From Candidatus Buchananbacteria bacterium RIFCSPHIGHO2_02_FULL_56_16 (GTDB lineage: Bacteria > Patescibacteriota > Patescibacteriia > Buchananbacterales > UBA6539), in the NCBI GenBank assembly GCA_001817495.1, contig MHIL01000028.1:1302-39699 (forward strand): a stretch of DNA of 38,398 nucleotides, given 5' to 3'. The position numbers were made by a program, and so were the translations under genes. Below, piece after piece: positions 9,350 to 21,301 of this stretch; position 1 is the first letter of the stretch; each line of letters starts with the position of its first letter. Under the pieces are notes generated by a model. It did no database searches and was not told the DNA's origin. It was given only the letters and a program-made list of their open reading frames with translations.

Positions 9350-12300
9350 GGCCGGCGGTTTCAATTTCATAATATCTTCCAACGACTGGCGGCCGACTTC
9401 GCTAGCCGGCGGGGGTGCGACGGGCGGCGGACTCTGGGTCGGAACACTCGGCGGTGGCGGCGGCAGGCTCGGGCCGGTACCGCGTTCCAGATTGATATCA
9501 AAATTAACGATGCCCGCTCTTCCTTTTTCAATCAAGTTAAGGTCACCGGTCCTTCGCGGCCGGTAGCCGGGTTTTTCAGCGGTCAGGTAGTACCAGTTAT
9601 GGTCGACCAAAAAGGCGTAGCGGCCATGACGGTCAGTGATTCGGCTCTCGACCAGCCGGTGGTGTTCCTGATCATAGATTCGAACAACGGCCAAACGAAT
9701 CGGCGTCCGGTTCGCCTGGTCATAGACCACGCCCCAGCTCTTGGCTGGCCGAACATACGCCAACCGTCGGAACAGCCCATAGAGCAGGCAGTGAACTCCG
9801 AAGAGGCTTAAGGTTATGCCAGAGGGGCTGATGGCCAGTGACAACGCCGCCAGCGGTACCCCGGAAAAAGCGATGGCGTACTGGAGCTTGCGCCGGAAGT
9901 ATTGAAAAATAAGCTTGGCCGGCTGACGGCTGTCTTCGGGTGAATCCAGGGGGATGTTAGCGGTAATCGGCAGGCTGGAGCGTTGGATCTCAATCGGCTC
10001 GCCGTGGTAGAGGTTGAGGTGCCTGACGTCTTCATACTTACCCTTGAGCAGCGCCGTGGGGAAGGTAAACGTCGGTTTGGTAACGGTGAGGTAGTACCGG
10101 CCCGGCGGGACGATAAAGCTGTAGCGGCCCTGCTGGTCGGTGACCTGCGAACGGATCGGCCGGTTGTCAGCCGTACGGTAGAGCCTGACGATGGCGAGGT
10201 CAATCGGCTCTTTGGTGATAGCGTTGTAGACCACCCCCCACTGTTTCCGGCGACGCAAGAGGAGCGCGAACGGTTCGGTGAAAAGGAAGCGCAGGTAGGA
10301 TAGGAAGGTAAAGAGCGGCAGCATCGAGAAGCTATTGACCACGACCGCCGTCATCAAGAGCGGCGCCGCCAGCTGCTCATTGATCGTCTCAACAATCAGA
10401 TTGTCCAGAACCGCCTCTCGGAACAGCGTACCGATGGCGCCGGCCGATTCGGTGATGTTACGCTCACTGCGGTCCGACGGTTTGGCGCAGCCCGGGTCGG
10501 CCAGGTAGTCAGGCAGCCCGTCGCGATCGTTATCCAGCCCGTCGAGGCAAGCCGGCAGCGGCCGCGAAACGGTCGGCGGGATACCGCAGTCAACCGCGCA
10601 CGACCAGGTGGCTTCGTCTTCTTCGCAGATACGGTTCCCGCAGCACTCGACGGTCGGCGCGCAGCTGCAGCTAGCAAGGTCAAGGCTCTGACAGACGCCG
10701 CAGGCGACGTCGCAGCCAGGCTGGCACGAACGAACCTCCGGCGGCCGACCAAGGTCAAGGTCACAGCCATTCAGGTCGTAGCACTCGCGCGATTGCGAAC
10801 CGGCCTGACACGATCCCCACCCTAAGCAGGTCCAGCTCGGCTCGCAAATTTCAACGCAGTCCTGGGGACAGGCGCTCAAGCTCTCCCCCGCCTCACAGAC
10901 GGCGTTGCCGCAGAACGGCACGATCCGTTCGCAGACGCACTGGGTAATGTTGATGATTTCACCAGCGCCGCACTCGAGGCCCGGGCAGACGCCGCCGCAG
11001 CTGCGCTGGGTATCGGGCTCTATAATCGGCACGGCGCAGGCGTTACGGTCGAAGCAGTCGCGCGTCTGAACGCCGGCGGCCGGGCAGTCAGCCGGCTGCC
11101 AGCCGCCGCAGTCCCATTCCGAGAGGCAGCTGACCGGACAATCGAGCGCGCAACGGTAGGGGTCCTCGCCAGGCGGTTCGCAGCTCTGGTTACCGCAGCA
11201 GTTGGCCACATCAATACAGCTGCAGGTCTGCGGGTCGAGCTGCTGGCAGCCGCCGCAGACGACACCGGTACAGACACCGCAGCCCTCCTGGTACTGGTAG
11301 CCTGGCTGGCAGGTTGGTGTTGTCTGGTCTTCACAGGTTACGACCCGCAGGCCGTCGGGCTGGCAGGCGCCGGGCGCACACAAAAAATCGGGCGCACAGG
11401 CGCAGTTGGGGTCGCCGGCGACCGAACCGTCGGTGCAGGTTGAAGCGGCGTAGTCGCAGAAACCGTCATGATCGTCATCAAGGCCGTTGTTGCAGTTTTC
11501 GACGCCGCCTGATGTCAGCCAAGAACCGTCATAGCTGGTGACCAAATCAGGAGCAGCTGGACGATCGAGGCTGGCGGTAATTTGAAAGTAGTAGCTGGTG
11601 TTTGCGGTCAACCCGCCAATCGGGTGGCGGTAGCTACTGCCCGACAAACTGGCCGAACCATCGCTCAAGCTCACGGTACGCCCCCACTCCAGTACCGAAC
11701 CAGTCGCGACCGAGCTGCAGGTACCGCCCTGCCAGCTGCGCGTCAGCCAGTTGACCGTGGCCAAACTCCGGGTAACCGAGCTGACGCTGACGTTGCTGAT
11801 TAAGAGCTCAACCTGGCAGCTCGACGAGCAGCAGTCGCCGGCAGCGGTGTTGTTGTCGTCGCACTCCTCGCCGGCTTCAACCACGCCATTGCCGCAGCCG
11901 AGCTCCAGTTGGCAGCTCGACGAGCAGCCGTCGCCGGCAGCGGTGTTGTTGTCGTCGCACTCCTCGCCGGCTTCCGTAAAACCGTTGCCGCAAACCGGCA
12001 AGCAGCTTTGGGTTTGGGTGAACGGTCCGCTGCAGCTGTTGGTACAGCTCCGGGATTGGATACCGCTGCTGCACGCACCCCAGGGGTCGCAGCTGACCGT
12101 GCAGGCTGGCGGCGGCGGGGATGGCGGGCCGTGGCCGGGCACGGCGCAGACGCAGCTCGCGTTGCAGGTCTGACCGGCCGGACAGTCGCTGGTGCTCTCG
12201 CACCCTTCGCCGGCGCCAATCGTGCCGTCGCCGCAGACCGGGCAGGTGCAGTCGCTGTTGCAGCTGCTGTTGTAGCAAACGCCCGAGCTCGCGCCGCCGT

Positions 12301-18491: not shown

Positions 18492-18701
18492 ATGAAGCTC
18501 AAAACCCACAAAGCCACGGCGAAAAAGATTAAAATCACGAATACTAAGCGACGCAAAAACAAAAAGTTTCTGACGAAGCGGGCCGGCCAGGATCACTTCA
18601 ACGCTCGCGAGTCCGGTAACGTCACCCGCAGCAAGCGACGCCGGCAGACGCTCGACCCGACCAACGTCAAGACCGCCAAGCGGATGCTGCCTTATGCTTA
18701 A
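18492..18701 (+). CDS. rpmI: 50S ribosomal protein L35
   Basis: MKLKTHKATAKK; lies between infC and rplT. Confidence 0.93.
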   Translation: MKLKTHKATAKKIKITNTKRRKNKKFLTKRAGQDHFNARESGNVTRSKRRRQTLDPTNVKTAKRMLPYA

Positions 18702-18712
18702 CATGAGCTTTG

Positions 18713-18785
18713 TAGGAATTAGGAATTAGCTTGTAGCTTCTTAGAAATGGCATCTAAGAGACTACAACCCAATTCCTAATTCCTA
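18713..18785. repeat. 7-nt-periodic hairpin (family C related)
   Basis: taggaat taggaat tagcttg ... aattcct aattcct; shares agcttgtagcttcttag with the 23621 copy. Confidence 0.8.
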
Positions 18786-18800
18786 ACTCCTGAACTACCT

Positions 18801-19148
18801 ATGCCAAGAGTCAAACGAGGAAAAACCCACGTTGCCAAACGCAAGCGGCTGTTCAAGCAAGCCAAGGGCTTCCGCTGGGGCCGTAAGAACGTCATCCGTC
18901 TGGCCAAGACGGCCGTCATCAAAGCCGGCGTCCACGCCTATCGCGGCCGCAAGGGCAAGAAGCGAACCAACCGCGCCTTGTGGCAAATCCGCATCAACGC
19001 CGCAGTCCGGCCGCACGGCTTGAGCTATTCGAAGTTCATCAACCTGCTCAAGGTCAAAAAAATCGAGCTCGACCGCAAGGTCCTCTCCGAGTTAGCCGCC
19101 AAGCACCCGAAGGTGTTTGACGCGATTGTCAAAGAGGTCAAAAAATAA
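18801..19148 (+). CDS. rplT: 50S ribosomal protein L20
   Basis: MPRVKRG, RALWQIRINAA, LDRKVLSELA. Confidence 0.97.
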   Translation: MPRVKRGKTHVAKRKRLFKQAKGFRWGRKNVIRLAKTAVIKAGVHAYRGRKGKKRTNRALWQIRINAAVRPHGLSYSKFINLLKVKKIELDRKVLSELAAKHPKVFDAIVKEVKK

Positions 19149-19199
19149 TTTTTTTGGAATAGTAAAAAAATCAGAGCGGGGGCGTAGCTCAGCTGGTTA

Positions 19200-19313
19200 C
19201 CCCGCACCAAATCCGTAAAAAGCTTCAACAGGTTTTAATGGTTAACCGATACGGAGTCGATTTCGGCTTACTACTCTAAATCTAGGTTTTTTATTGATTT
19301 GGTGCGGGGCAGG
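19200..19313. mobile_element. MITE/REP-like insert with 14-bp terminal inverted repeats
   Basis: ccccgcaccaaatc (19200-19213) / gatttggtgcgggg (19296-19309) plus a 4-nt tail cagg; interrupts the tRNA D arm. Confidence 0.75.
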
Positions 19314-19356
19314 GAGCGTACATAACGCTTTGAAAATCTAGCAACAAAATCACAGC

Positions 19357-19430
19357 GGGGGCGTAGCTCAGTTGGTTAGAGCGTCTGCCTGTCACGCAGA
19401 AGGTCGTGGGTTCGAGCCCCATCGTCCCCG
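19357..19430 (+). tRNA. tRNA-Asp(GTC), intact, no encoded CCA
   Basis: gggggcg/cgtcccc acceptor, tctgc-ctGTCac-gcaga anticodon arm, TTCGA, G73. Confidence 0.93.
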
Positions 19431-19832
19431 CTGTGATTTTGTCGTGAAGCCCTTGCAGAGGCTGCGGGTTACCGCCAGAGGCGGACCCCGTCGAATGACC
19501 GAGCAAGTCCCGTCGGCTCCGTTTAGCACCTAATCAATTCCCACATCACACAAAAGCCTGGGGTTCGTCCGGTCATCCGACCGGACGCCCCGTCGAATGA
19601 CGGGGCGAGCCCCATCGTCCCCGCTGTGATTTTGTTGCTGAACGTCTGACTGCTTGCCCCGCACACCGACCCCGAGCCTGTCGAAAGGAAGGTGCTGCGG
19701 GGTCACGCAGATTTACCCTCCGAAACGTACGTGTAGGAGGGAGGTCGTGGGTTCTCCGCCACATTGTTTTAAGGGCGGACCCGCCTCTGGCGGGGAGCCC
19801 CATCGTCCCCGCCATTACAACAAAGCATCAAT

Positions 19833-19862
19833 AAAACCAGCCGCCTCAAAAGGGCGGTTTTG
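19833..19862 (+). terminator. Probable terminator after the tRNA-Asp locus
   Basis: gccgcc-tcaaaag-ggcggt stem followed by Ts. Confidence 0.55.
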
Positions 19863-19903
19863 TGATAGAATAAAAACAAGTGATATTATTGATATATTTA
19901 AAT

Positions 19904-21301
19904 ATGCCGGATACCACGTTACTAAAACCTTTCCCCGCGCCGATGCCGTTAAAAAAAATACTGGGCCCGAGCTTTATTATTCTGGCCCTTGGGCTTGGCT
20001 CTGGGGAAGTGATTCTCTGGCCGCTCTTAAGCGCCAACTACGGCCTGGGCATCGCCTGGGGCGCACTGCTGGGCATTACCTTTCAGTTCTTCATCAACAT
20101 GGAAATCGAACGCTATGCTCTGGTTAAGGGCGAGAGCGTGTTCGTCGGGGTTAACAAAATATTCCCCTGGGCGGCCTGGTGGTTTGTCGCCTCGACGTTT
20201 ATCGGTTTCGGCCTGCCGGGTATCGTGGCGGCCAGCGCCCATGTGTTCGCTTTCATACTGGGCATTGAAAATTTTAAATGGCTGGCCATACTGTTTTTGC
20301 TGATCATCGGCCTGATCTTGAGCGCCGGCAAAACCGTTTACGGCACGATGGAAAAAATTACCAAAACGATTATTGTTACCGGCATTCCTTTCATTATCGT
20401 ATTGGTGGCGCTGTTGAGCACCGGCGTTGACTGGGCGGCGCTGGGCTCGGGCTTGCTGGGTATCGGCGACGGCTACCATTTCTTGCCGGTCGGCATCTCA
20501 CTGGCAACTTTTCTGGCCGCTTTTGCCTACTCCGGCGCCGGCGGCAACCTGAACTTGACGCAATCTATTTACATTAAAGAAAAAGGCTACGGCATGGGGG
20601 CATATTCGCAAAAAATCGCCGGATTATTTAAGAACGTTTCCCAAAGACAAAAAGTAAAACTGGCCGGCGAGGACTTTGCATTGACGCCGGATAACATTAA
20701 AAATTTTAAAGCCTGGTGGAAGGTTGTCAACCTTGAACACCTGCTGGTATTTTGGCTTGTGGGGCTTGTTAGTATCGCCATGCTGATGGTACTCGCTCAC
20801 GCCACCACCTTTGGGCTGATTGGTAACGCCGAAGGGATTTCCTTCGTTATCAATGAGGGTGTTGCCATTGGTGAAAAGCTGTTTCCGGCGCTCGGCATGC
20901 TCTTCCTGCTGGTGGTCGCCGTCATGCTCTTTCAGACGCAGCTGGGCGTTTTGGATTCGACCTCGCGCATTATGGCGGAAAACGTCGCAATTAAAAAAAT
21001 CCACCAAAATAAAGAAATTAACCTGTCAAAAATTTATTTTTCTTTCGTCTGGGCGCAAATCGTTTTCGGCATCACTCTGTTTCTTTTTAACATTACCGAA
21101 CCAAAATTTTTAATCGTTCTGGGAGCGGTGATTAACGCCCTTACCATGTTTGTCCACATCGGCCTCGTCAACTGGACCAACTACAAGCTGCTGGCAAAAC
21201 CCTTTCAGCCACACCTGCTCCGACGATTGATACTGGCGGTGATCTTTGTATTCTTTGGCCTGTTTAGCACCATTACCGTCTGGGATTTGCTCTTTAAATA
21301 A
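19904..21301 (+). CDS. Nramp/APC-superfamily divalent-metal transporter-like protein
   Basis: GPSFIILALGLGSGEVILWP, EIERYAL..GES, many TM helices; lacks the canonical Nramp DPGN. Confidence 0.78.
   Translation: MPDTTLLKPFPAPMPLKKILGPSFIILALGLGSGEVILWPLLSANYGLGIAWGALLGITFQFFINMEIERYALVKGESVFVGVNKIFPWAAWWFVASTFIGFGLPGIVAASAHVFAFILGIENFKWLAILFLLIIGLILSAGKTVYGTMEKITKTIIVTGIPFIIVLVALLSTGVDWAALGSGLLGIGDGYHFLPVGISLATFLAAFAYSGAGGNLNLTQSIYIKEKGYGMGAYSQKIAGLFKNVSQRQKVKLAGEDFALTPDNIKNFKAWWKVVNLEHLLVFWLVGLVSIAMLMVLAHATTFGLIGNAEGISFVINEGVAIGEKLFPALGMLFLLVVAVMLFQTQLGVLDSTSRIMAENVAIKKIHQNKEINLSKIYFSFVWAQIVFGITLFLFNITEPKFLIVLGAVINALTMFVHIGLVNWTNYKLLAKPFQPHLLRRLILAVIFVFFGLFSTITVWDLLFK

What the first reader, a model, noticed from the sequence alone, without database searches (positions are those of the whole stretch)
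19178..19814. Nested tRNA-Asp: an outer gene broken by five insertions, one of which carries an intact replacement
Seen: gggggcgtagctcagctggtta (19178-19199) + gagcgt (19314-19319) + ctgactg (19646-19652) + tcacgcaga (19703-19711) + aggtcgtgggttc (19742-19754) + gagccccatcgtccccgcca (19795-19814) join in order into a full tRNA-Asp. It differs at only two bases from the intact copy at 19357-19430, which lies inside the second insert. The inserts fall in the D arm, anticodon stem, anticodon, variable region and T loop, and each is or contains a self-complementary hairpin. No tRNA base is lost at any junction. Inference: either a tRNA-targeting family of non-autonomous palindromic elements repeatedly hit a redundant copy, or the hairpins are excised precisely at DNA or RNA level. 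The C>A change in the anticodon stem slightly favours a dead copy.
Basis: partly seen in the sequence, partly recalled or inferred. Interest (0 to 1): 0.9.

Follow-up and report, generated by a model that had tools for sequence, protein, structure and literature searches.

The report
Overwritten tRNA-Asp gene with spare inside
The old aspartate tRNA gene of a tiny groundwater bacterium has been split by a mobile piece of DNA that carries its own working copy, then riddled with small hairpin elements, and the same thing has happened at many other tRNA genes in this bacterial group.

Summary
Six ordered pieces (19178-19814) join into a 77-nt tRNA-Asp(GTC) ending in CCA. It differs at two bases from the intact copy at 19357-19431. 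The tiling scores 99 against at most 34 for 30 shuffles. Contigs from 4 runs in 4 studies reproduce the junctions of inserts 1, 3, 4 and 5.

It is not a one-off. About 10 of 36 tRNA loci in this 1.06-Mb Patescibacteria genome have the same layout. So do relatives in other genera and in more distant Patescibacteria.

Relatives with a plain locus have rplT, tRNA-Asp-CCA, then a terminator. The outer gene is therefore the resident. The inner gene lacks CCA and has inverted-repeat flanks. In relatives the same kind of cassette carries a small GIY-YIG nuclease gene just upstream of the tRNA.

The other inserts belong to recurring palindromic families. An identical 30-mer sits at two different tRNA positions. 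A 115-nt family occurs in both orientations.

I found no relic without an intact partner, no EndA or RtcB and no bulge-helix-bulge junction.

Best reading: a dead resident gene overwritten by a self-replacing cassette plus hairpin elements. RNA splicing is unlikely but untested.

The parts
18801..19148 (+). rplT (ribosomal protein bL20), the conserved upstream neighbour of the resident tRNA-Asp
   Evidence: 115-aa ORF. rplT homologues are followed by tRNA-Asp in relatives.
19178..19199 (+). Outer tRNA-Asp piece 1: 5' acceptor strand, D-stem 5' strand and D-loop. Carries the diagnostic C in the D-loop.
19200..19313 (+). Insert 1: 114-nt inverted-repeat element (arms CCCCGCACC / GGTGCGGGG plus a CAGG tail) with a conserved core. 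Same family and same D-loop site as in the tRNA-Val relic; also in the tRNA-Glu relic.
19314..19319 (+). Outer piece 2 (D-stem 3' strand). An alternative 6-mer lies at 19640-19645.
19320..19645 (+). Insert 2: ORF-less replacement cassette holding the intact tRNA-Asp and a further layer of tRNA debris
19340..19356 (+). Leader arm of the cassette. It is complementary to the trailer at 19624-19640 and extends the acceptor stem of the inner tRNA.
   Evidence: (helix seen in the sub-threshold hairpin alignment)
19357..19431 (+). Inner, intact tRNA-Asp(GTC) with no encoded CCA. It is the only tRNA-Asp that the tRNA finders call in the assembly.
19558..19566 (+). T-arm 5' fragment of an intermediate tRNA-Asp layer
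   Evidence: read by eye
19567..19606 (+). 40-nt double hairpin in the T-loop of that intermediate layer. A 98% copy lies at G000:C31 (intergenic) and a 90% copy in a tRNA-Cys relic.
19607..19639 (+). Second copy of the tRNA-Asp 3' end plus trailer. 30 nt are identical to 19414-19443. This trailer pairs best with the leader.
19646..19652 (+). Outer piece 3: anticodon-stem 5' strand to the first anticodon base. Carries the A that breaks the last stem pair.
19653..19702 (+). Insert 3: 50-nt hairpin (cttg spacer plus CCCCGCAC-type arms) inside the anticodon. Diverged hairpins occupy the same site in the Asp relics of G007, G010 and G005.
19703..19711 (+). Outer piece 4: rest of the anticodon loop and the anticodon-stem 3' strand
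19712..19741 (+). Insert 4: 30-nt hairpin (ttta spacer plus CCCTCC/GGAGGG) at the junction of anticodon stem and variable region. Same site in G012, G013, G007, G010 and G005, with compensatory stem changes.
19742..19754 (+). Outer piece 5: variable region, T-stem 5' strand and first T-loop bases
19755..19794 (+). Insert 5: 40-nt double hairpin in the T-loop. The same family at the same T-loop site is seen in relics of Glu, Lys, Gly-tcc and Cys (G000) and of Lys, Asp, Gly, Ser-gga and Ser-tga (G012).
19795..19814 (+). Outer piece 6: rest of the T-arm, 3' acceptor strand, discriminator and encoded CCA
19841..19857 (.). Terminator-like hairpin (followed by a T run on the + strand) behind the outer gene, as behind the uninterrupted tRNA-Asp-CCA of relatives with a plain locus
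   Evidence: the scan scored it on the minus strand

Best explanation
The outer gene is the wreck of the ancestral, rplT-linked, CCA-encoding tRNA-Asp gene. A mobile cassette bounded by inverted repeats landed inside it. The cassette brought a complete tRNA-Asp of its own, without CCA and wrapped in a leader-trailer helix with A and T runs that looks like a built-in terminator. Decoding of Asp codons was therefore never lost. In related genomes the same kind of cassette still carries a roughly 80-100-aa GIY-YIG nuclease gene a few bases upstream of its tRNA. This suggests spread by nuclease-triggered copying into tRNA genes, as in homing. The copy in this window has no ORF. The now redundant outer pieces were then hit, or were already hit when the composite arrived, by cargo-less members of related inverted-repeat (hairpin) element families. 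These insert without target duplication or loss, at loop and helix-junction positions of the tRNA cloverleaf. Insert 2 itself records a further round: a T-loop double hairpin plus a duplicated 3' end. Shown here: the anatomy, its recurrence across loci and genomes, the GIY-YIG-tRNA linkage, the mobility of the hairpin families at DNA level, and that every relic found has an intact partner. Inferred: the order of events, that the nuclease drives spread, which enzyme moves the hairpins, and that the outer copy makes no tRNA.
For: 1. Polarity. Four relatives in the family (G014, G018, G002, G003) have rplT, then an uninterrupted tRNA-Asp with CCA, then a terminator hairpin. The outer copy here has exactly that position, CCA and terminator.
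2. Two styles of tRNA gene. Of the 34 tRNAs above the Rfam cut-off, 20 encode CCA. Those with extended leader-trailer pairing lack CCA (Asp, His, Gly-tcc, Gly-gcc and, by eye, Glu, Leu-cag and Arg-cct). The one exception is Ile-tat, where CCA is part of the repeat.
3. Recurrence in this genome. About 10 of 36 tRNA loci show broken outer copies around or beside an intact gene of the same anticodon (z 7.9-35; anatomy).
4. Recurrence in G012. Of 47 rows, 19 were flagged. I dropped 4 of them as neighbouring intact paralogues.
5. Recurrence in other relatives. Asp relics occur in 5 of 11 relatives' loci, plus a decayed one in G008, and in 4 of 19 wider rplT-linked Asp loci, including Magasanikbacteria and Nomurabacteria records.
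6. GIY-YIG linkage. GIY-YIG ORFs lie 8-28 nt upstream of tRNAs in G000 (Lys twice, Pro-ggg) and in G012 (Ala, Glu). They also lie inside the Asp cassette of G013 and of the Magasanikbacteria record L086.
7. GIY-YIG linkage, wider sample. Of the 30 best GIY-YIG loci, from G000 and 29 other genomes, 17 have a same-strand tRNA starting within 120 nt downstream.
8. Hairpins behave as DNA elements. An identical 30-mer sits in the Glu anticodon loop and in the Lys T-loop. The 115-nt family lies reversed in the G010 Asp relic. The 30-nt double-hairpin pattern occurs in 83 of 201 genomes of the class, against 0 for the reversed control, and there also in intergenic DNA and long ORFs. In G000 all 10 strict double-hairpin loci lie within 324 nt of an intact tRNA.
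9. Relics look dead. The outer Asp has an A.G mismatch. The outer Ile has a broken T-stem and a C.A acceptor pair. The outer Glu lacks 3 nt and ARAGORN does not call it. The Val, Pro and Lys relics lack halves.
10. Intact partners. G012 (93% complete) has a full intact set of 47 tRNAs and 45 anticodons. A scan of G000 with 83 tRNA queries found no convincing relic without an intact partner. The one partnerless hit scored 53, just over the cut-off of 50, with ARAGORN's unassigned C15 call as the query.
11. Distinct alleles. The inner and outer Glu acceptor stems differ by two compensatory pairs. The inner is therefore not a local duplicate.
Against: 1. The Asp relic has lost no base and shows only two substitutions, which is unusually clean for a pseudogene.
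2. Hairpins occupy the same two sites (inside the anticodon, and after the anticodon stem) in Asp relics of five or six genera. Their stems change in a compensatory way while the short exons stay identical. That pattern is what selection on a spliced gene would give. Recurrent site-specific insertion, or spread of the whole composite, must be invoked instead.
3. No transposase for the hairpins was identified. Three Y1-transposase-like genes exist but are not flanked by these hairpins.
4. There is no target-site duplication, unlike classical MITEs.
5. This locus has no GIY-YIG gene.
6. The GIY-YIG proteins are a bare catalytic domain. Their matches to homing-endonuclease families are weak (TIGR01453 at 24 bits against a cut-off of 56).
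7. Only one reversed copy of the 115-nt element was seen.
8. The absence of EndA and RtcB rests on an 87.7% complete genome.
9. No RNA data exist.
Confidence: 0.6

Rival explanations
1. The hairpins did not transpose one by one. Either they are emptied remains of earlier cassettes (inverted-repeat arms left after loss of the cargo tRNA), or they travel with the cassette as one composite. In the second case the composite spreads between genomes by nuclease-triggered repair with co-conversion of flanks, and the terminal outer pieces serve as homology arms.
For: Cassette flanks have the same arm motifs as the small hairpins. Examples are the Ile cassette (cttg + CCCGCCCACC ... GGTGGGCGGG) and the G012 Pro-tgg, Leu-cag and Ser-gga cassettes. 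The Ile cassette and Asp insert 3 share the site and the cttg spacer. Hairpin positions are shared across genera while the cassette position varies. The exons are kept clean.
Against: An identical 30-mer lies at two different positions in two different tRNA relics. The same families occur in non-tRNA contexts in other genomes. Short hairpins have tight tetraloops, which a simple deletion of a tRNA cargo would not leave.
Confidence: 0.2
2. The inserts are intron-like. They are removed from the outer transcript by an unknown bacterial activity, so the locus yields a second, CCA-encoded tRNA-Asp.
For: Exact retention of every tRNA base. Each insert closes on itself at the junction and brings the exon ends together, and the outer acceptor and T stems form in the 637-nt fold. 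Sites are conserved across genera with compensatory stem changes and unchanged exons. Insertion sites lie at loops and helix junctions, as for archaeal non-canonical introns (this comparison is recalled).
Against: None of the 5 junctions fits a bulge-helix-bulge geometry. There are no EndA or RtcB matches and no Rfam intron or ribozyme match. One element family occurs in both orientations. Identical elements lie in intergenic DNA and ORFs elsewhere. Every relic has an intact partner, and G012 has a full intact tRNA set. Sister relics have lost bases or halves. The outer anticodon stem carries a mismatch.
Confidence: 0.07
3. The hairpins are excised precisely at DNA level, for example by replication slippage or a hairpin-specific enzyme. 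The outer gene could then be regenerated in part of the population, serving as a reversible reserve copy.
For: Insertions carry no target duplication or loss, so a precise exit is possible in principle. The palindromes would extrude as hairpins in single-stranded DNA.
Against: In 4 metagenome runs no contig joins across any insert at its exact borders. The only joints listed have sides of 18-26 nt and start or end inside other tRNA-like sequence. Five independent excisions plus loss of the cassette would be needed.
Confidence: 0.03
4. The nested structure is an assembly artefact of a metagenome bin.
For: tRNA sequences are repeats shared by many organisms. The interior of insert 2 is only thinly covered in independent contigs.
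Against: Error-free contigs from 4 runs in 4 studies span pieces 1-2 with insert 1, and pieces 3-6 with inserts 3-5. The pieces are 6-22 nt, shorter than assembler words. The same architecture recurs in many independently assembled genomes.
Confidence: 0.01

Closest known systems
Freestanding GIY-YIG homing endonucleases beside tRNA genes (phage T4 SegB; PMC2330249, title and abstract seen in the listing)
   Same: A small GIY-YIG nuclease gene sits among or next to tRNA genes. The proposed spread is by cleavage of an allele that lacks it, followed by copying of the nuclease gene with neighbouring DNA. Plain and invaded states coexist among relatives.
   Different: Here the host is a cellular chromosome, not a phage. 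The module carries a full spare tRNA of the same identity as the gene it splits. The ORF is only the catalytic domain. This particular locus has no ORF. No cleavage was shown.
Palindromic repeat elements that persist inside genes (Rickettsia palindromic elements; REP and Correia-type repeats). Recalled, no paper read here.
   Same: Short, non-coding, hairpin-forming and multi-copy. Found in both orientations. Tolerated inside genes where harmless, including in-frame in ORFs of other genomes of the class.
   Different: Very small (30-50 nt double or single hairpins). No target duplication. In this genome they are confined to tRNA relics (10 of 10 loci) and placed at fixed cloverleaf positions. 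Stems are conserved across a whole class (83 of 201 genomes).
Multiply interrupted archaeal tRNA genes and tRNA intron transposition (reviews PMC4090602 and PMC4033280; abstract listing and passages)
   Same: Several short inserts per tRNA gene, at non-canonical loop and junction positions. Related insert sequences occur at different positions and in different tRNAs.
   Different: Those are bulge-helix-bulge introns cut by EndA and joined by a ligase in genes that have no intact paralogue. Here no such junction or enzyme was found, an intact paralogue is always present, and one family lies in both orientations. PMC4033280 states that bacterial tRNA genes are uniform, with only group I/II introns at 37/38 known.
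tRNA gene disruption by an integrating element that leaves tRNA fragments (Caldiarchaeum tRNA-Thr; PMC3293823, abstract read) and integrase-type islands that restore the tRNA 3' end (recalled)
   Same: A mobile element lands in a tRNA gene and function is kept because the element supplies tRNA sequence. Displaced fragments and duplicated 3' ends remain (30-nt repeat inside insert 2).
   Different: There is no recombinase or integrase and no kb-sized cargo here. A whole tRNA is supplied, not a 3' part. The nesting is inside the gene body rather than at its 3' end.
[quoted passage not shown]
   Same: Same bacterial group. Stable-RNA genes are crowded with insertions at preferred sites, some with GIY-YIG ORFs. 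Many are short, ORF-less and not group I/II introns.
   Different: Those sit in the only rRNA copy and must be removed or tolerated at RNA level. The paper's main text does not mention tRNA (0 occurrences). Its supplementary tables could not be seen.

Membership tests
Protein-spliced (bulge-helix-bulge) tRNA introns | Exon-intron junctions fold into a helix, 3-nt bulge, 4-bp helix, 3-nt bulge, helix motif (definition recalled) | tested here: not met
   A simple geometric scan of all 16 bulge offsets per insert was run. None of the 5 inserts gives a 4/4 central helix with bulges and both flanking helices. The best was insert 1 at 3/4, including two G.U pairs.
Protein-spliced (bulge-helix-bulge) tRNA introns | Splicing endonuclease (EndA, PF01974) and RNA ligase (RtcB, PF01139) encoded | tested here: not met
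   0 matches each in G000. The genome is 87.7% complete, so absence is not proven.
Protein-spliced (bulge-helix-bulge) tRNA introns | The interrupted gene is the functional gene for its anticodon | tested here: not met
   An intact tRNA-Asp lies inside it. No convincing relic without an intact partner was found in G000 with 83 queries. G012 has a full intact set.
Protein-spliced (bulge-helix-bulge) tRNA introns | A joined mature RNA exists | not testable with these tools
   No RNA run holds the locus.
Self-splicing group I/II introns in bacterial tRNA genes | Ribozyme core recognisable; insertion next to the anticodon (37/38) | tested here: not met
   The Rfam scan of 18700-20300 at E up to 10 finds only the inner tRNA above threshold. 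The inserts are 30-114 nt (plus the 326-nt cassette) and lie at five other positions.
MITE-like / palindromic repeat elements | Short, non-coding, with terminal inverted repeats, in multiple copies | tested here: met
   Hairpin folds. Families recur across loci. An identical 30-mer occurs at two sites. The pattern is present in 83 of 201 genomes.
MITE-like / palindromic repeat elements | Inserted in either orientation (a DNA-level element) | tested here: met
   The 115-nt family lies reversed in the G010 Asp relic. This rests on one case. The short perfect palindromes are uninformative.
MITE-like / palindromic repeat elements | Target-site duplication made by a DDE transposase | tested here: not met
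   The tRNA sequence continues without duplication or loss at all five junctions and at sister loci. A possible 6-7-nt repeat appears only at the cassette (GAGCGT/GAACGT) and at one intergenic copy on C31.
MITE-like / palindromic repeat elements | Cognate transposase in the genome with matching ends | tested here: inconclusive
   Three Y1_Tnp-like ORFs exist, but their flanks lack these hairpins. Other transposase families were not searched.
Freestanding GIY-YIG homing-endonuclease cassette | Nuclease ORF within the mobile segment | tested here: not met
   There is no such ORF in 19178-19814. It is present in the equivalent cassette of G013 (L002) and of the Magasanikbacteria record L086, and at the Lys and Pro loci of G000.
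Freestanding GIY-YIG homing-endonuclease cassette | Presence/absence polymorphism at the same site among relatives | tested here: met
   Plain rplT-tRNA-Asp-CCA loci in 4 relatives, against invaded loci in 6 others plus G000.
Freestanding GIY-YIG homing-endonuclease cassette | Site-specific cleavage of the cassette-free allele; DNA-binding domain | not testable with these tools
   The proteins are 78-87 aa and match only the GIY-YIG catalytic domain (PF01541 at 54-65 bits). Matches to homing-endonuclease families are weak and sub-threshold.
Integrase-type tRNA-targeting islands | Integrase gene and kb-scale cargo between direct repeats of the tRNA 3' end | tested here: not met
   The whole structure is 637 nt, with only short overlapping ORFs that have no family hit. 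A 30-nt direct repeat of the 3' end does exist inside insert 2.

The most novel reading that the evidence does not exclude
Patescibacteria harbour an unrecognised kind of mobile DNA that overwrites tRNA genes. These are inverted-repeat-bounded elements that enter tRNA genes at loop and junction positions of the cloverleaf, without duplication or loss. That placement suggests recognition of folded single-stranded DNA. The autonomous form carries a minimal GIY-YIG nuclease plus a spare tRNA of the same identity, so it can destroy an essential gene and replace it in one step. The cargo-less forms are the 30-115-nt hairpins. The nested tRNA-Asp would be a fossil record of at least two or three such rounds.
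Probability: 0.4. Interest if true: 0.85.

Novelty: new variant of a known kind. Interest (0 to 1): 0.72.

Why it matters
Bacterial tRNA genes are regarded as uniform. One review read here says the only notable exception is group I/II introns at 37/38. This locus, and dozens like it across Patescibacteria, show tRNA genes being repeatedly split, replaced and littered with hairpins in genomes of about 1 Mb that are otherwise streamlined.

If the reading is right, several things follow:
- A selfish element can target an essential single-copy gene safely by carrying a replacement.
- The reading gives a role to the abundant, unexplained small GIY-YIG genes of these bacteria: 38 of 41 genomes searched have a match, with up to 13 per genome.
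- It may explain why tRNA regions break assemblies, and it warns that tRNA counts and anticodon inventories in such genomes can be distorted.
- The class-wide 30-nt double hairpin and the fixed cloverleaf insertion sites give a testable handle on a structure-specific insertion mechanism.

If instead the outer gene is spliced, it would be the first multi-intron tRNA in Bacteria.

Tried and rejected
1. Chance or misreading. Rejected by the shuffle control and by ARAGORN on the joined pieces.

2. Misassembly. Rejected for inserts 1, 3, 4 and 5 by independent contigs. The interior of insert 2 remains thinly covered. No exact-border joint across any insert was listed there. I give that blank no weight beyond the DNA-excision rival.

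3. RNA evidence. No RNA holder was listed for the locus, so expression and splicing could not be examined.

4. Known RNA families. Only sub-threshold microRNA-like hairpin hits appeared, apart from the inner tRNA.

5. Relics without an intact partner.
- A 9-mer seeded version hit the time limit with no output.
- The 11-mer seeded version worked. It can miss relics whose pieces are all under 11 nt or that have diverged from the G012 and G000 queries. At its stricter settings it also missed the Gly-gcc relic seen.
- Its one hit without an intact neighbour scored 53 on C20, with ARAGORN's unassigned C15 call as the query. I treat that as noise.
- The tRNAs missing from G000 (Asn, Ala-tgc, Val-tac, Leu-taa/tag, Ser-tga/gga and others) were not found in broken form. 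They may lie in the unassembled 12%.

6. Y1 (IS200/RAYT-like) transposases as the hairpin enzyme. Three ORFs were found, but their flanks lack these hairpins. This is left open.

7. C3 16500-16700 and C36 13765, which hold hairpin motifs. I could not read a tRNA relic there by eye.

8. Literature. Six searches turned up no description of nested or hairpin-riddled tRNA genes in bacteria:
- tRNA, Candidate Phyla Radiation, intron, hairpin
- GIY-YIG, tRNA gene, homing endonuclease, Patescibacteria
- tRNA pseudogene, palindromic, insertion, nested, bacteria
- tRNA, Parcubacteria, interrupted, insertion, pseudogene
- miniature inverted-repeat, tRNA gene, insertion into tRNA, bacteria
- tRNA intron, transposition, Thermoproteales, bulge-helix-bulge
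This covers only the open-access library.

No earlier finding was used.

10. Not used: structure prediction, complex prediction, the atlas and the large protein searches.
Full report
**What is there**

Joined in order, they give a 77-nt sequence that ARAGORN folds as tRNA-Asp(GTC) with an encoded CCA.

The intact gene at 19357-19431 is the only tRNA-Asp that ARAGORN or the Rfam model finds in the window and in the whole 1.06-Mb, 39-contig assembly. The outer copy differs from it at two body positions. One is a C in the D-loop. The other is an A that turns the last anticodon-stem pair into A.G. The tail also differs: CCA in the outer copy, none in the inner.

The five inserts are 114, 326, 50, 30 and 40 nt, and each folds on itself. 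In a fold of all 637 nt the inserts pair almost only internally, and the outer acceptor and T stems still form.

With the inner copy masked, a spliced alignment of the tRNA to its flanks scores 99. Thirty shuffled queries gave a mean of 23 and a maximum of 34.

The parse has two small ambiguities: an alternative second piece at 19640-19645, and a G that can sit on either side of insert 3.

It contains a T-arm fragment (19558-19566), a 40-nt double hairpin (19567-19606), and a second copy of the tRNA 3' end with its trailer (19607-19639). Thirty nucleotides of that copy are identical to the end of the inner gene.

**Is the assembly real?**

Logan contigs from four DNA runs in four different studies (groundwater and soil metagenomes) match without a single difference across:
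- 18800-19386 and 19578-20300 (X1),
- 19095-19388 and 19578-20300 (X2),
- 19161-19386 (X3),
- 19095-19391 and 19586-19750 (X5).

This covers every junction of inserts 1, 3, 4 and 5. The pieces between inserts are 6-22 nt, too short to be stitched by an assembler's words. The middle of insert 2 is covered only thinly. No run on record as RNA holds the locus.

**It is one case of a general phenomenon**

The same masked spliced alignment was run on all 36 ARAGORN tRNAs of the genome. It finds broken copies beside or around an intact gene of the same anticodon at about ten loci: Asp, Ile-tat, Gly-gcc, Glu, Arg-tct, Arg-cct, Pro-ggg, Cys, Val and Lys (z 7.9-35). One further high row, Trp, is a neighbouring second tRNA gene (anatomy).

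In relative G012 (4 contigs, 93% complete), 19 of 47 rows were flagged. I dropped four of them as matches to neighbouring intact paralogues, and some of the rest lie in a crowded tRNA cluster.

For tRNA-Asp itself, a broken outer copy is evident in 5 of 11 relatives' loci (G013, G007, G010, G012, G005). A heavily decayed one is visible in G008.

Among 80 rplT loci from named Patescibacteria assemblies, 19 have a downstream same-strand tRNA-Asp, and 4 of those show relics. These include a Magasanikbacteria and a Nomurabacteria record.

**Which copy is the old one?**

Four relatives in the family have a plain locus: rplT, then an uninterrupted tRNA-Asp ending in CCA, then a terminator hairpin. 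The outer copy here has that position, that CCA and that terminator.

The inner gene lacks CCA. It is wrapped in a leader-trailer helix that prolongs the acceptor stem between an A run and a T run. The same design, with different but still complementary sequences, surrounds the inner tRNA-Asp of G013, G010, G012, G007, G005 and G008.

Genome-wide, 20 of the 34 tRNAs above the Rfam cut-off encode CCA. Those with long leader-trailer pairing do not, with one exception where CCA is part of the repeat.

At the Glu locus the inner and outer acceptor stems differ by two compensatory pairs. The inner gene is therefore an immigrant allele, not a local duplicate.

**What brings the inner copy?**

In G013 the insert that holds the inner tRNA-Asp also holds a GIY-YIG ORF directly upstream of it. 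The same is true in the Magasanikbacteria record L086.

In G000, three of seven GIY-YIG matches lie 8-28 nt upstream of tRNAs at relic loci (Lys twice, Pro-ggg). G012 has two such pairs.

Of the 30 best GIY-YIG loci, from G000 and 29 other genomes, 17 have a same-strand tRNA starting within 120 nt downstream, of many different identities. Six more have one within about 400 nt, in tRNA clusters.

The proteins are 78-87 aa and match only the catalytic domain. Their matches to homing-endonuclease families are weak. The cassette in this window has no ORF.

**What are the other inserts?**

They belong to recurring families that sit at the same cloverleaf positions in different relics.

- Insert 1 is a roughly 115-nt inverted-repeat element with a conserved core. 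It sits at the same D-loop/D-stem junction of the Val relic, three bases further along in the Glu relic, and in G012 Ser and Leu relics. In G010 it lies reversed inside the Asp anticodon.
- Insert 5 is a double hairpin of a family found in the T-loop of relics of Glu, Lys, Gly-tcc and Cys (G000) and of Lys, Asp, Gly, Ser-gga and Ser-tga (G012).
- Related double hairpins sit at the D-stem/D-loop junction of Ile, Gly-gcc and Arg-gcg relics, and in the Glu anticodon loop.
- An identical 30-mer lies in the Glu anticodon loop and in the Lys T-loop.

In G000 all 10 strict double-hairpin loci lie within 324 nt of an intact tRNA.

The 30-nt pattern occurs in 83 of 201 sampled genomes of the class, against none for the reversed control. 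In those genomes it also lies in AT-rich intergenic DNA and inside long ORFs as a 10-codon insert.

The arms of many cassettes have the same motifs as the small hairpins. Cassettes and hairpins therefore look like cargo-bearing and empty members of one kind of element.

None of the tRNA insertions duplicates or deletes target bases.

**Dead or spliced?**

*Against splicing:*
- None of the five junctions fits a bulge-helix-bulge geometry.
- No EndA or RtcB was found, in an 87.7% complete genome.
- There is no Rfam intron or ribozyme match.
- One family occurs in both orientations.
- The same elements occur outside tRNA genes.
- G012 has a full intact set of 47 tRNAs with 45 anticodons.
- A scan of G000 with 83 tRNA queries found no convincing relic without an intact partner.
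- Sister relics are visibly decaying. The outer Ile has a broken T-stem. The outer Glu lacks three bases and is not called a tRNA. The Val, Pro and Lys relics lack halves.

*For splicing, or at least for constraint:*
- The Asp relic has lost nothing.
- Hairpins at the two anticodon-arm sites are shared by Asp relics of five or six genera, with compensatory stem changes and unchanged exons.

I read the shared sites as site-specific re-insertion or spread of the whole composite. This is inference.

**Comparison with what is known**

The closest parallels are:
- freestanding GIY-YIG homing endonucleases in the T4 tRNA region (abstract),
- palindromic elements that persist inside genes (recalled),
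- multiply interrupted archaeal tRNA genes,
- disruption of an archaeal tRNA gene by an integrating element (abstract),
- the many short ORF-less insertions in CPR rRNA genes.

None combines a full spare tRNA nested in the gene it splits with position-specific hairpin litter. Six literature searches found no such description for bacteria. A review states that bacterial tRNA genes are uniform apart from group I/II introns.

**Verdict**

The most likely explanation (about 0.6) is that the resident tRNA-Asp gene was overwritten by a self-replacing, inverted-repeat-bounded cassette and was further hit by cargo-less hairpin elements, leaving a dead but unusually clean relic.

The mechanism of insertion and the role of the GIY-YIG nuclease are inferred, not shown. 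RNA-level removal remains possible (about 0.07) and is directly testable through the two outer-specific bases.

Noticed in passing
window 18708-18787: A roughly 70-nt AT-rich near-perfect palindrome lies just upstream of rplT. It gives only sub-threshold microRNA-like Rfam hits. It may be another palindromic element or a leader structure.
   Followed up: no
G000:C32 3048-3144 (outside the window): An NAD-dependent epimerase/dehydratase-like gene on the minus strand has its first roughly 11 codons duplicated. A second start codon and N-terminus lie inside a 97-nt segment bounded by the CCCCGCACC/GGTGCGGGG arms. This looks like a replaced 5' gene end, reminiscent of the tRNA case.
   Followed up: no
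G000:C26 1-950 (outside the window): A tandem stack: GIY-YIG gene, decayed tRNA-Lys with a T-loop double hairpin, second GIY-YIG gene, intact tRNA-Lys, then a 3' tRNA-Lys fragment with another T-loop hairpin. Similar GIY-YIG pairs about 340-380 nt apart occur in G017, G031, G026, G030 and G009.
   Followed up: partly
G000, about 15 intergenic sites (e.g. C4 4485-4515, C10 71316-71344): Terminator-like hairpins with nearly identical stems (CCCCGCACCTTTT, loop, AAAAGGTGCGGGG) lie between T and A runs. They share their stem with tRNA inserts 1 and 3.
   Followed up: partly
L124, L144, L148 (other genomes of the class): The 30-nt double hairpin lies inside long open reading frames as a 10-codon insert. 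It resembles palindromic elements inside Rickettsia genes (recalled).
   Followed up: partly
G000:C34 about 10780-11545, minus strand (outside the window): A 254-aa Y1-transposase-like ORF contains internal repeats of a roughly 20-aa unit. The same roughly 40-nt repeat follows the gene.
   Followed up: no
G000:C22 21908-21978 (outside the window): A second tRNA-like gene (54 bits) lies 40 nt from tRNA-Trp. ARAGORN did not call it.
   Followed up: no
G000 whole genome: ARAGORN finds no tRNA for Asn, Ala-tgc, Val-tac, Leu-taa/tag, Ser-tga/gga and others. No broken versions were found either. They probably lie in the unassembled part, perhaps because repeat-laden tRNA loci break assemblies.
   Followed up: partly
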